A stretch of 64,000 nucleotides of DNA from contig JAKKUQ010000003.1 of NCBI GenBank assembly GCA_021890755.1, forward strand, positions 3,292-67,291, in the 5' to 3' direction. Positions within the stretch are counted from its first letter, which is position 1. The number at the start of each line of letters is the position of its first letter. The position numbers were made by a program, and so were the translations under genes. Positions 16,535-17,852 of this stretch are shown in pieces. Source of the stretch: Thermosediminibacteraceae bacterium (GTDB taxonomy: Bacteria > Bacillota > Thermosediminibacteria > Thermosediminibacterales > Thermosediminibacteraceae). The notes under the pieces were generated by a model. That model worked only from the letters and a program-made list of their open reading frames with translations. It made no database searches and was not told the origin of the DNA.

Positions 16535-16578
16535 TGTTCAAATTGCTTTTAGCGTGACCCTAATAAATAAAGCGATGT

Positions 16579-16607
16579 TTGAACACCTATCGAGTATTTG
16601 TTATAAT
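16579..16607 (+). promoter_or_regulatory. Sigma-A-type promoter directly upstream of the large non-coding region
   Basis: TTGAAC (16579-16584), a 17-nt spacer, then TATAAT (16602-16607). Confidence 0.55.
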
Positions 16608-16613
16608 ATAATC

Positions 16614-17248
16614 GGCGAATTCGGTGAAACAGGTGGTGCAGTATTCTAGTCGAAATCCTCTTCTCTGAAGACGGGGCTAAAAATCCGTCGCGGGCACATC
16701 GATGAAGTTCCTTGTGCTGGCTGCCGACGCCCAGTCGGGGGTTGGTGCAGGGAGTAAGGGAGTGGGGCAACCTGCAAAGGCATGCAGGCACGACCCTACT
16801 CCCGTGGAGACCCAAGTGCGTGATGGAAGGTCAAAAGCCTTCTGTTACGGCTTGGGGCGTGAACCTGCATCCGATACAAACCGTGTTGGGTGCAGTGTAG
16901 CCTGCCTTGAGCGGGAAGGGTGGAAAAAGGTCTCCAAGCCGCATTTAAACTGGCCATTTAAATGCGGTCAATACCTTTGAAACCCTTTCTGCAAAAGAGG
17001 CTAGGGGAAGATGGATTTCGGTGAGGAAAGCTCCTAGACTGTTCCGCAAGGAAGTGAACTGAGGATTACAGTGCGGTCTAAGTGGCAATCCAGCCCTGCT
17101 TATGGCGACATGGCAGAGAGGGGCTTAAAGGGGAACCGCCCTTGCCGGCGACGGAGGGTGCTCCTCTGGGAAATCCTGCTGGACCTAAGCCGCAAAATTT
17201 ACTCAGTTCACTACCACCTGTTTCACCTCGTTCGAGGTGAATTTTTTT
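16614..17248 (+). ncRNA. ole: OLE (ornate, large, extremophilic) RNA, ~630 nt
   Basis: The ~710-nt gap between ispA and the next credible CDS is conspicuously G+C-rich against AT-rich flanks. It holds many local helices and a 15-bp long-range 5'-3' helix. The only ORFs are overlapping, SD-less and low-complexity. The ispA-[RNA]-membrane protein-tlyA-nadK-recN context is canonical for OLE. Boundaries are approximate. Confidence 0.8.
17223..17248 (+). terminator. Terminator-like hairpin plus U tract at the OLE 3' end; its 3' arm is the oapA SD
   Basis: Stem TCACCTC/GAGGTGA (7 bp), loop GTTC, then A-T7. GAGGTGA also lies 6 nt upstream of the TTG start at 17247. Confidence 0.5.
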
Positions 17249-17852
17249 GATTAAAAATAATAACAAACAAAGTAAAGGCAAGAAAAGCAACGGAGGACCA
17301 AAAGGGGATTGGATATATAAGGTTATCCTGATAACTTTTGGGCTTTCCGTTTTTTTTAGTTTTATATCGGAAAACTTAATGATGAGGTTCAATATAATTG
17401 TTTCTGTTATCATTTTGTCGGTAATAGTGTTTATAGGTATAATGTTTGACATCATAGGAATAGCTGTAACTTCCGCCGATGAAACTCCGTTCCATGCTAT
17501 GGCGGCTGATAAGGTTCCAGGTGGAAAAGAGGGTGTAAAACTGATAAGAAATGCCGATGTAGTCTCAAATTTTTGCAACGATGTGGTTGGTGATATTTCA
17601 GGAATAATAAGCGGTGCTGTTGGAGCATCCATTGCGGCAAAGATACTAAACAGCGGAGAGCTCTCTGAAATACTGGTTAATACTTTTATAGCTGGATTAA
17701 TTTCCACAATTACAGTAGGGGGGAAGGCTCTCGGCAAAACCATCGCCATACAGAATTCTAAAAATATCGTTTACAGGGTTGCTTATATTCTTTTTTTACT
17801 GAAAAAACGTTTTGGAATCGACCTATTCCCTAGGAAAATGAGTAAAAAATAA
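17247..17852 (+). CDS. oapA: OLE-associated protein A (OapA)-like four-TM membrane protein
   Basis: Lies immediately downstream of the OLE-like RNA. Four hydrophobic segments. DVVGD (DxxxD) motif inside a TM segment, as I recall for OapA. Lys-rich N-terminus. Confidence 0.75.
   Translation: MIKNNNKQSKGKKSNGGPKGDWIYKVILITFGLSVFFSFISENLMMRFNIIVSVIILSVIVFIGIMFDIIGIAVTSADETPFHAMAADKVPGGKEGVKLIRNADVVSNFCNDVVGDISGIISGAVGASIAAKILNSGELSEILVNTFIAGLISTITVGGKALGKTIAIQNSKNIVYRVAYILFLLKKRFGIDLFPRKMSKK

What the first reader, a model, noticed from the sequence alone, without database searches (positions are those of the whole stretch)
16535..17852. OLE (ornate, large, extremophilic) RNA with its membrane partner OapA between ispA and tlyA
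Seen in the sequence:
- There is a ~710-nt gap between the ispA stop (16534) and the next credible CDS (17247).
- The gap has its own TTGAAC-17-TATAAT promoter (16579-16607).
- It is visibly much more G+C-rich than the AT-rich flanks.
- Its only ORFs overlap each other on both strands, lack SDs and encode Gly/Arg/Pro-rich low-complexity peptides.
- It is packed with helices: 16750-16760/16794-16803 (GGGAGTA(A)GGG / CCCTACTCCC); 16771-16776/16783-16788; 16865-16872/16888-16895; a perfect 11-bp hairpin at 16939-16949/16957-16967; 17001-17007/17031-17037; and a 15-bp long-range helix closing the whole element.

Established knowledge: OLE RNAs are ~600-nt structured RNAs of anaerobic/extremophilic Firmicutes. 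They typically sit among ispA, dxs, tlyA, nadK and recN, and are followed directly by oapA. OapA is a four-TM protein with a conserved DxxxD motif.

Match here: the downstream ORF has four hydrophobic segments and DVVGD. The biochemical function of the OLE RNP remains unresolved, which makes this the most unusual element in the window.
Basis: partly seen in the sequence, partly recalled or inferred. Interest (0 to 1): 0.75.

Follow-up and report, generated by a model that had tools for sequence, protein, structure and literature searches.

The report
Textbook OLE RNA with OapA partner
The 712-base gap between ispA and the next gene encodes a full-length, canonical OLE RNA followed by its membrane partner gene oapA; this RNA–protein pair is already well described and its biochemical job is still unknown, so this copy is an ordinary member of an interesting family.

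Summary
Rfam's OLE model (RF01071) matches window 16617-17233 (+) end to end at 525.5 bits (threshold 50). The ORF that follows (17247-17852) is OapA:
- It has four long helices and an invariant DxxxD motif (D112-D116).
- Its Pfam CNNM hit is below threshold, and its predicted fold matches CorB/CorC transmembrane domains best.
- In 77 of 80 other genomes, its homolog sits directly downstream of an OLE RNA.

The promoter, high G+C, lack of conserved ORFs and most of the listed helices check out. Two helix details are wrong. One helix is in the wrong register because of a local direct repeat. Another (17001-07/17031-37) is contradicted by a covarying 3-bp hairpin.

The organism is a Thermosediminibacteraceae relative, and its gene order is identical to Fervidicola and Thermosediminibacter. 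dxs is not at this locus.

The only mildly new point concerns the closing helix P1. It is unusually long here (15 bp, the longest of 72 loci). It overlaps a terminator-like hairpin whose 3' arm carries the oapA Shine-Dalgarno sequence. The two structures cannot form together, so they could couple OLE folding to oapA expression. This is a hypothesis specific to this lineage.

Verdict: already known; low interest.

The parts
16579..16607 (+). Sigma-A type promoter of ole: -35 TTGAAC (16579-84), 17-nt spacer, extended -10 TGtTATAAT (16599-16607). The predicted transcription start is about 16613-16616.
   Evidence: Found by the consensus scan. Both boxes are conserved in all 8 relatives in alignment A2. 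Most of the 72 loci have a TATAAT-like box 10-25 nt before P1. A proximal promoter was shown experimentally for H. halodurans ole (PMC3413148).
16617..17233 (+). OLE RNA, full-length type with all stems P1-P15. It is not the shortened variant 1 or variant 2.
   Evidence: Rfam RF01071, 525.5 bits against a gathering score of 50, model positions 1-616 of 616, not truncated.
16623..16637 (+). 5' arm of the closing helix P1 (GGUGAAACAGGUGGU). A possible extension is CGAAU at 16616-16620.
   Evidence: A perfect 15-bp complement to 17213-17227. It forms in the full-length minimum-free-energy fold at 37 and 60 C. Covariation in a fixed register: 729 paired cells against 606 +/- 12.5 in cross-locus permutations.
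16670..16689 (+). P4 hairpin. Its loop GCUAAAAA (A-run 16679-83) corresponds to the A-A intermolecular bridge B1 of the OLE dimer.
   Evidence: Seen in the covariance-model alignment. Invariant in alignment A2. The bridge is described in PMC12286853.
16695..16707 (+). J4a/5 strand CACAUCGAUGAAG. This is the k-turn strand at the base of P5, the OapC site, and it contains the AUCGAU palindrome.
   Evidence: Matches the consensus exactly. The k-turn is defined in PMC9723947 and PMC12286853. The partner strands are also present: J5/6 UAAGG at 16755-59 and J6/7 GUGGAGAC at 16804-11.
16939..16967 (+). Distal P9 hairpin: a perfect 11-bp stem with loop CUGGCCA. The GGCC palindrome at 16952-55 is the kissing-loop dimer bridge B3.
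   Evidence: The palindromic L9.3 kissing loop is described in PMC12286853.
17096..17116 (+). P13 hairpin with a GCGA (GNRA) tetraloop at 17105-08 and a single bulged U at 17101. This is the OapB-binding site. A second GCGA loop (P14.1) lies at 17148-51.
   Evidence: Read from the covariance-model alignment. The binding requirements (GNRA loop plus a one-nucleotide bulge) come from PMC7936274.
17213..17227 (+). 3' arm of P1 (ACCACCUGUUUCACC).
   Evidence: Fervidicola and L083 show a compensatory A>G / U>C change.
17222..17248 (+). Terminator-like hairpin (UUCACCUCG-UU-CGAGGUGAA, 17222-17241) followed by a run of seven U (17242-17248). Its 5' arm overlaps the P1 3' arm at 17222-27. Its 3' arm contains the oapA Shine-Dalgarno sequence GAGGUG (17234-39). 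The U-run continues into the UUG start codon.
   Evidence: Found by the terminator scan. Folds at -11.6 kcal/mol on its own at 37 C. Conserved in L081, L083 and L084, but not in L082 or L001-L004.
17247..17852 (+). oapA, 201 aa. It is a small membrane protein with four transmembrane helices and a CNNM-like fold. The DxxxD motif is D112-V-V-G-D116.

Best explanation
This is a canonical ole-oapA locus from a thermophilic, anaerobic, spore-forming member of the Bacillota, close to Fervidicola and Thermosediminibacter.

How it most likely works, with each step marked as shown or inferred:
- Transcription (predicted): an OLE RNA of about 620-630 nt is made from its own sigma-A promoter.
- Folding (shown by the covariance-model match): the RNA adopts the conserved OLE architecture.
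- Partner sites (shown by sequence): it carries every element known elsewhere to bind OapB (P13 GNRA loop plus bulge) and OapC (the k-turn flanking P5). It also carries the elements that dimerise the RNA (the L4 A-run and the L9.3 GGCC kissing loop).
- Membrane anchoring (inferred by homology with H. halodurans): the next gene, oapA, encodes a four-helix CNNM-like membrane protein that anchors the RNA at the membrane.
- Physiological role (inferred from published H. halodurans genetics): the complex helps the cell cope with stresses such as alcohols, cold, excess Mg2+ and poor carbon sources.
- Biochemical role (my commitment; the Breaker-lab hypothesis, unproven): the RNA dimer is the regulatory or sensor module of an OapA divalent-cation transporter. 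It takes the place of the CBS and CorC domains found in the all-protein relative MpfA/CorB.
- oapA expression (inferred): oapA is expressed by read-through from the ole promoter, past a weak hairpin and U-run that also hides its ribosome-binding site.
For: RNA:
- Rfam OLE hit at 525.5 bits, full length.
- Relatives score 505-578 bits.

Protein:
- 4173 homologs.
- DxxxD is invariant.
- Four long helices in the AlphaFold model, mean pLDDT 72; a hydropathy window marks clearly only the first two and, marginally, the fourth.
- The top five PDB fold matches are all CorB/CorC CNNM transmembrane domains, probability 0.99-1.00.
- Pfam CNNM scores 23.9 bits, just under the 28.4 threshold. This is the placement published for OapA (PMC11332333).

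Linkage and context:
- OLE lies directly upstream of the homolog in 77 of 80 genomes.
- Synteny xseAB-ispA-OLE-oapA-tlyA-ORF171-nadK-argR-recN-spoIVB-spo0A matches three relatives.
- The promoter is conserved, and a proximal ole promoter is proven in H. halodurans (PMC3413148).

Non-coding status:
- The internal ORFs are not conserved.
Against: Nothing contradicts the identification. The limits are:
- No expression, binding or localisation data exist for this organism.
- OapB and a YbxF-type OapC were not found in the 64-kb window. Only a YlxQ-like L7Ae protein is present, at 60060-60401. The rest of the genome is unseen.
- The transporter-regulation mechanism is a literature hypothesis, not a demonstrated function.
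- The fold match to CorB is modest (TM-score 0.42-0.50, E about 1e-3).
Confidence: 0.96

Rival explanations
1. The 3' end of OLE doubles as a cis-regulatory switch for oapA in this lineage. In one state the extended P1 helix forms (16616-16637 with 17213-17234). The terminator/anti-SD hairpin then cannot form, so transcription reads through and the oapA ribosome-binding site is exposed. In the other state the 5' arm of P1 is unavailable, for example through misfolding or occupancy of the adjacent P2 region by protein. The hairpin 17222-17241 then forms, ends the transcript at the U-run and hides the SD. This would add to the main explanation rather than replace it.
For: - The two structures share 17222-17227 and so cannot form together.
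- P1 here is 15 bp, the longest of 72 loci (median 7).
- P1 wins thermodynamically: -33.4 kcal/mol for the mini-construct, against -11.6 for the hairpin alone.
- The hairpin, U-run and embedded SD are conserved in Fervidicola and in L083/L084. In those, a compensatory change in the P1 extension keeps the competition intact.
- A similar design, with the SD in the 3' arm of the hairpin, recurs in two unrelated lineages, L056 and L069.
Against: - The hairpin is absent from Thermosediminibacter (L082) and from L001-L004, so it is not a general OLE feature.
- One terminator-like site in 1.7 kb is within the chance expectation of 1.6 +/- 1.2.
- The stem is short for an organism that probably grows near 60 C (-7.6 kcal/mol at 60 C).
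- The SD GAGGUG is complementary to CACCUC simply because SD sequences are, so some pairing is expected by chance.
- There are no transcript-end data.
Confidence: 0.2
2. The region encodes one or more small proteins, such as the 92-aa ORF at 16702-16980, rather than a functional RNA.
For: Several ORFs of 45-92 aa exist on both strands.
Against: - The ORFs overlap one another.
- Their positions, lengths and frames differ among close relatives. The 92-aa ORF shifts frame in L082 and is truncated in L001-L004. L014 has no ORF of 40 aa or more.
- Conservation follows RNA base pairing, with compensatory changes.
Confidence: 0.01
3. The downstream protein is an ordinary CNNM/MpfA-type Mg2+ exporter that works on its own, and its adjacency to OLE is incidental.
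For: A weak Pfam CNNM hit and CorB/CorC as the best fold matches. Some databases label homologs 'CBS domain containing-hemolysin-like' or 'CorB'.
Against: - The CNNM score is below the Pfam threshold (23.9 against 28.4).
- The protein is only 201 aa and has no CBS or CorC domain.
- It has the OapA-specific DxxxD motif, which CNNM domains lack (PMC11332333).
- OLE lies upstream in 77 of 80 genomes, which is not incidental.
Confidence: 0.03

Closest known systems
OLE RNA (Rfam RF01071), e.g. Halalkalibacterium (Bacillus) halodurans ole. Cryo-EM structures exist for the Clostridium acetobutylicum and C. botulinum OLE dimers.
   Same: - Full-length match to the family model.
- Own proximal promoter.
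- P1 closing helix at the transcript ends.
- L4 A-run, k-turn strands, L9.3 GGCC loop, and the P13 GNRA loop with bulge.
- oapA immediately downstream.
- ispA, tlyA, nadK and recN in the neighbourhood.
   Different: - P1 is extended to 15 bp, or 20 bp with an internal loop.
- One U is missing from J5/6 (UAA instead of the model's UUAA). This is a common variant: 24 of 56 loci where the spacer could be read have UAA.
- A hairpin and U-run carrying the oapA SD lies between ole and oapA.
- dxs is absent from the locus.
OapA (OLE-associated protein A)
   Same: - Position immediately 3' of ole.
- About 200 aa with four transmembrane helices.
- Invariant DxxxD.
- CNNM-like fold and a Lys-rich N-terminus.
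   Different: Nothing notable. The public annotation of the 99%-identical protein (P0005, 145 aa) starts inside TM2. The homolog alignment suggests that this is a mis-called start.
MpfA / CorB / CorC (CNNM-family Mg2+ transporters; PDB 7M1T, 7M1U, 7CFF)
   Same: These are the best structural matches to the OapA model, and there is a weak sequence match to PF01595. This is the basis for the idea that OapA moves divalent cations.
   Different: - OapA has four transmembrane helices rather than three.
- OapA has DxxxD.
- OapA lacks the CBS pair and the CorC_HlyC domain.
- OapA scores below the Pfam threshold.
- In the literature, MpfA is anticorrelated with OLE across genomes (PMC11332333).
Intrinsic terminator / antiterminator and SD-sequestering leaders (e.g. 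T-box, riboswitch expression platforms)
   Same: Two mutually exclusive helices share one strand, followed by a U-run and an occluded SD.
   Different: - The 'antiterminator' would be the closing helix of a 600-nt structural RNA, not a small aptamer.
- It is unproven.
- It is restricted to one lineage.

Membership tests
OLE RNA (RF01071) | Covariance-model score above the curated gathering threshold over the full model | tested here: met
   525.5 bits against 50; model 1-616 of 616; E = 2.9e-151; + strand.
OLE RNA (RF01071) | Full-length architecture with P7, P8 and long P9 present (as opposed to variant 1 or 2) | tested here: met
   All stems align without large deletions. The variants are defined in PMC11332333.
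OLE RNA (RF01071) | P1 helix joining the 5' and 3' ends | tested here: met
   15 bp at 16623-37 / 17213-27. It covaries across 71 loci, with 729 paired cells against 606 +/- 12.5 in permutations.
OLE RNA (RF01071) | OapB site: P13 closed by a GNRA tetraloop, with a single-nucleotide bulge | tested here: met
   GCGA loop at 17105-08 and bulged U at 17101 (criteria from PMC7936274). Binding itself cannot be tested here.
OLE RNA (RF01071) | K-turn strands flanking P5 (the OapC site) | tested here: met
   J4a/5 CACAUCGAUGAAG at 16695-707 matches exactly. J5/6 UAAGG and J6/7 GUGGAGAC are present. This is sequence evidence only.
OLE RNA (RF01071) | Dimerisation elements: L4 A-run and a palindromic L9.3 loop | tested here: met
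   AAAAA at 16679-83 and GGCC at 16952-55 (PMC12286853).
OLE RNA (RF01071) | Host is a member of the Bacillota, typically an anaerobe or extremophile | tested here: met
   The closest proteins and loci are from Thermosediminibacteraceae, Fervidicola and Thermosediminibacter. Sporulation genes spoIIIA, spoIVB and spo0A are in the window.
OLE RNA (RF01071) | Abundant, stable transcript of about 600 nt that localises to the membrane | not testable with these tools
   This needs RNA-seq or northern blots and cell fractionation.
OapA | Encoded immediately downstream of ole on the same strand | tested here: met
   The start is at 17247, 14 nt after the end of the Rfam hit. The same arrangement is found in 77 of 80 genomes.
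OapA | Four transmembrane helices | tested here: met
   AlphaFold helices at 17-47, 50-76, 103-134 and 139-169. Hydropathy peaks at 23-44, 54-72 and 139-157; the third helix (103-134), which carries DxxxD, stays below the 1.6 cut-off, so four helices rests mainly on the model.
OapA | Conserved DxxxD motif | tested here: met
   D112-VVG-D116, invariant in 22 sequences.
OapA | CNNM-like transmembrane fold without CBS or CorC domains | tested here: met
   PF01595 scores 23.9 bits, below the 28.4 threshold, and there are no other domains. The top five Foldseek matches are CorB/CorC.
OapA | Direct homology to the experimentally studied H. halodurans OapA | not tested
As an indirect test, Bacillaceae homologs (Rossellomorea, Aeribacillus, Fictibacillus, Virgibacillus) all lie next to OLE.
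OapA | Binds OLE RNA (2:1) and tethers it to the membrane | not testable with these tools
   This is a biochemical test.
MpfA/CorB CNNM Mg2+ transporter | PF01595 score above the gathering threshold, plus a CBS pair and a CorC_HlyC domain | tested here: not met
   23.9 bits is below 28.4. The protein is 201 aa with no CBS or CorC hit. It is therefore not filed as MpfA/CorB.
Intrinsic terminator | G+C-rich hairpin directly followed by a U-run | tested here: inconclusive
   The pattern is met at 17222-17248. However, one such site is within chance expectation, the stem is weak at 60 C, and it is conserved only in the nearest clade.

The most novel reading that the evidence does not exclude
In the Fervidicola-like clade, the unusually long P1 helix of OLE acts as an antiterminator and anti-anti-SD for oapA. 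Correct closure of the 600-nt RNA, or protein occupancy of its 5' end, would then set how much OapA is made. This would be a built-in stoichiometry control for an RNA-protein machine, using a giant structural RNA as its own expression platform.
Probability: 0.15. Interest if true: 0.45.

Novelty: already known. Interest (0 to 1): 0.2.

Why it matters
OLE RNA is one of the largest conserved bacterial non-coding RNAs whose biochemical function is still unknown, so every correctly annotated copy has some value for comparative work. This copy adds a clean thermophilic example with clearly defined promoter, P1 and 3' end signals.

It does not change what is known. The family, its partner OapA, the CNNM relationship, the promoter, P1, the protein-binding sites and the dimer contacts are all already published.

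The practical value is in annotation:
- The intergenic region should be labelled ole.
- The 201-aa ORF should be called oapA, starting at TTG 17247. The public call for the 99%-identical protein is 145 aa and appears truncated.

Tried and rejected
- Sequence searches of OapA against PDB chains found nothing useful. The single-sequence search gave 0 hits. The profile search gave one spurious hit at E = 0.68. Only the fold comparison recovered CorB/CorC.
- NCBIfam has no OapA model.
- Looking up P0005, the 99%-identical protein, to recover the source contig failed.
- The contiguous-helix measure for P1 discriminated poorly because the core GUGGU/ACCAC is conserved everywhere. A fixed-register permutation test replaced it.
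- I searched the window's small ORFs for OapB (KOW/SBB) or YbxF-type OapC proteins. Only a YlxQ-like L7Ae protein turned up, in the nusA-infB operon. Not every small ORF was scanned.
- A protein-coding reading of the gap was considered and rejected.
- The reading that OapA is a stand-alone MpfA was considered and rejected.
- My first coordinates for P1 (16625-16639) were off by two. They were corrected to 16623-16637 against the raw sequence and the fold output.
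Full report
**1. Observation**

The ispA-type ORF ends at 16534. 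NCBIfam scores it as farnesyl diphosphate synthase at 350.8 bits against a cut-off of 275. The next ORF with homologs begins at TTG 17247. This leaves 712 nt.

- G+C across 16550-17300 is 0.50-0.55, against 0.32-0.44 on either side.
- The consensus scan finds TTGAAC-17-TATAAT at 16579-16607 with a TG extension.
- That count alone is not above chance. But the TTGAA box and TGnTATAAT are conserved in all eight relatives aligned, and most of 72 related loci have a TATAAT-like box just upstream of the RNA.

The ORFs inside the gap overlap on both strands and are not conserved.
- Their positions and frames differ between close relatives.
- The longest, at 92 aa, changes frame in Thermosediminibacter.
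- The Thermoanaerobacter copy has no ORF of 40 aa or more.

**2. Identity of the RNA**

Rfam's OLE model (RF01071) matches 16617-17233 on the + strand at 525.5 bits. The gathering score is 50, E = 2.9e-151, and the match covers model positions 1-616 of 616 without truncation. The only other Rfam hit in the window is an unrelated T-box.

This is the full-length form, not the shortened variants described by Fernando and Breaker (PMC11332333).

Sequence elements that the literature ties to function are all present:

| Element | Coordinates | Source |
|---|---|---|
| L4 loop A-run (A-A dimer bridge) | 16679-83 | PMC12286853, |
| GGCC palindrome in the distal P9 loop (kissing-loop bridge) | 16952-55 | PMC12286853, |
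| J4a/5 k-turn strand CACAUCGAUGAAG | 16695-707 | PMC9723947, |
| P13 GCGA tetraloop | 17105-08 | PMC7936274, |
| P13 single bulged U (OapB requirement) | 17101 | PMC7936274, |

**3.

Four agree with the covariance-model alignment: 16771-76/83-88, 16865-72/88-95, the 11-bp P9 hairpin, and the closing helix.

Two do not.
- *The GGGAGUA(A)GGG / CCCUACUCCC pairing uses the wrong 5' strand.* The model pairs 16758-67 with 16794-803 (P6). It pairs GGGAG 16750-54 with UUCCU 16708-12 (P5). Watson-Crick compensatory changes in L083 and L002-L004 fit the model's register.
- *The 17001-07/17031-37 pairing is not supported.* It is fully paired in only 7 of 65 distinct sequences and shows no covariation. 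It also competes with the hairpin GAG-GAAAG-CUC at 17023-33, which pairs in 65 of 65 with GAG/CUC, GUG/CAC, GGG/CCC and GCG/CGC.

**4. The closing helix**

This is the known P1. In H. halodurans the 5' ends of OLE map to the start of P1, next to a proven proximal promoter (PMC3413148).

- Here it is a perfect 15 bp, at 16623-37 with 17213-27. That is the longest of 72 loci, whose median is 7.
- A further 5 bp (16616-20 with 17230-34) form after a 2x2 internal loop.
- In a fixed register, 729 of 1065 cells pair across 71 distinct loci. Cross-locus permutations give 606 +/- 12.5, with a maximum of 639. Up to six pair types occur per position.

**5. Identity of the protein**

The 201-aa ORF has 4173 homologs. 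The nearest are:
- a Thermosediminibacteraceae MAG protein at 99% identity, annotated as only 145 aa;
- Fervidicola ferrireducens at 74%;
- Thermosediminibacter litoriperuensis at 75%.

The alignment of 22 homologs shows an invariant N-D-V-x-G-D (DxxxD, D112-D116). It also shows a conserved Lys-rich N-terminus, which supports TTG 17247 as the start.

Family and fold evidence:
- Pfam gives only a sub-threshold CNNM hit (23.9 against 28.4 bits), with no CBS or CorC domain.
- NCBIfam has no model for it.
- The AlphaFold model (pLDDT 72) has four long helices. The hydropathy profile marks three of them; the DxxxD-bearing third helix stays below the cut-off.
- Its five best PDB matches are all CorB/CorC CNNM transmembrane domains at probability 0.99-1.00, TM-score 0.42-0.50.
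- This repeats the published OapA-MpfA/CorB relationship, including 7M1U (PMC11332333).

The decisive test is linkage.
- Of the 80 best genomic loci encoding a homolog, 77 have an OLE directly upstream on the same strand by nhmmer.
- Two of the three exceptions have fewer than 200 nt of upstream sequence.
- Rfam confirms full-length OLE (388-578 bits) in 13 of 14 loci sampled.

**6. Context**

The gene order is spoIIIA…asp23-asp23-DUF2273-nusB-xseA-xseB-ispA-OLE-oapA-tlyA-ORF171-nadK-argR-recN-spoIVB-spo0A. It is identical in Fervidicola, Thermosediminibacter and a metagenomic relative. dxs, often cited as an OLE neighbour, is not at this locus.

**7. The one feature beyond the textbook**

Directly after P1 lies a hairpin, UUCACCUCG-UU-CGAGGUGAA (17222-41), followed by seven U that run into the UUG start codon.

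- Its 3' arm contains the oapA Shine-Dalgarno sequence GAGGUG (17234-39).
- Its 5' arm overlaps the 3' arm of P1 (17222-27).
- The two structures therefore cannot form together.
- Thermodynamically P1 wins, at both 37 and 60 C.

Conservation:
- The hairpin is conserved in Fervidicola and in L083/L084. There, a compensatory change in the P1 extension preserves the competition.
- It is absent from Thermosediminibacter and from the next-nearest genera.

Across 72 loci:
- About 18 have a terminator-like hairpin within 40 nt of the OLE 3' end.
- An SD embedded in the 3' arm recurs in two unrelated lineages.

This suggests, but does not show, that OLE is mostly terminated or occluded here. Closure of P1 would then license oapA transcription and translation. 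I rate this at 0.15-0.2.

**8. Mechanism**

- *Shown:* the RNA family, the protein family and their linkage.
- *Inferred from H. halodurans work:* OapA dimers tether an OLE dimer to the membrane, with OapB and OapC bound. The particle supports growth under alcohol, cold, Mg2+ and carbon-source stress (PMC3413148, PMC9723947, PMC10898510, PMC12265935).
- *Committed but unproven:* the RNA serves as the regulatory module of a CNNM-like cation transporter.

**9. Verdict**

The finding is correct and well observed, but it describes an already known system in its ordinary form. The interest lies in the family, not in this instance.

Noticed in passing
window 18686-19201 (+): A conserved 171-aa ORF lies between tlyA and nadK. 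It is also present at the same place, at 171-172 aa, in L081, L082 and L083. It has a hydrophobic N-terminus and matches no family above threshold. There is only a weak PD-(D/E)XK / Cas4-like signal: TIGR00372 at 31.3 bits against a cut-off of 65, and PF12705 at 18 bits.
   Followed up: partly
window 49282-52482 (+): A T-box leader at 49282-49486 scores 93.9 bits, barely above the gathering score of 93. It sits upstream of a type-I proline-tRNA ligase (49548-50984, 642.7 bits). A second, bacterial-type ProRS-like ORF with a YbaK-like editing region follows immediately (50929-52482) and scores below the equivalog cut-offs. This looks like two ProRS paralogs in tandem behind one T-box.
   Followed up: partly
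window 60060-60401 (+): An L7Ae-family (k-turn-binding) protein is encoded in the nusA-ylxR-[L7Ae]-infB operon. It is YlxQ-like by synteny and by NCBIfam (about 68 bits, below the cut-offs). It belongs to the same family as YbxF/OapC, so it could in principle bind the OLE k-turn. Whether this genome also has a YbxF-type gene is unknown.
   Followed up: partly
L017 (CAKPCH010000006.1, uncultured Bacilli MAG), 2500-4600: An OapA homolog (46% identity) has no detectable OLE in the 1.5 kb upstream. nhmmer found nothing, and Rfam found nothing even at E <= 1. It is the only well-flanked exception among 80 loci.
   Followed up: partly
L002 (Thermovenabulum sp.), about 3357-3938; alignment A2 columns about 420-465: This OLE lacks the whole distal P9 hairpin, including the GGCC kissing loop that forms dimer bridge B3. 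It still scores 504.9 bits as a full-length hit.
   Followed up: no
L056 (Dysosmobacter MAG) and L069 (Clostridium rectalis), 15-55 nt after the OLE 3' anchor: A hairpin and U-run whose 3' arm contains the oapA Shine-Dalgarno sequence (…GGAGGG AATTTTTTG and TGGAGG ATTTTTAAT). This is the same design as in the window, but in unrelated lineages.
   Followed up: partly
window 17247-17852 compared with public protein P0005: The 99%-identical public protein is annotated as only 145 aa, starting inside the second transmembrane helix. The alignment of 22 homologs supports the longer 201-aa form starting at TTG 17247. The public call is probably a mis-called start.
   Followed up: yes
L005, L007, L011, L015, L023, L026, L044, L059, L060 (Tissierellales, Alkaliphilus, Caloranaerobacter and relatives), 18-50 nt after the OLE 3' anchor: A strikingly conserved terminator stem, AGCTGATAGC…GCTATCAGCT followed by a T-run, lies after OLE in this group. 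The stem sequence is nearly identical across genera, which is more conservation than a terminator normally needs.
   Followed up: no
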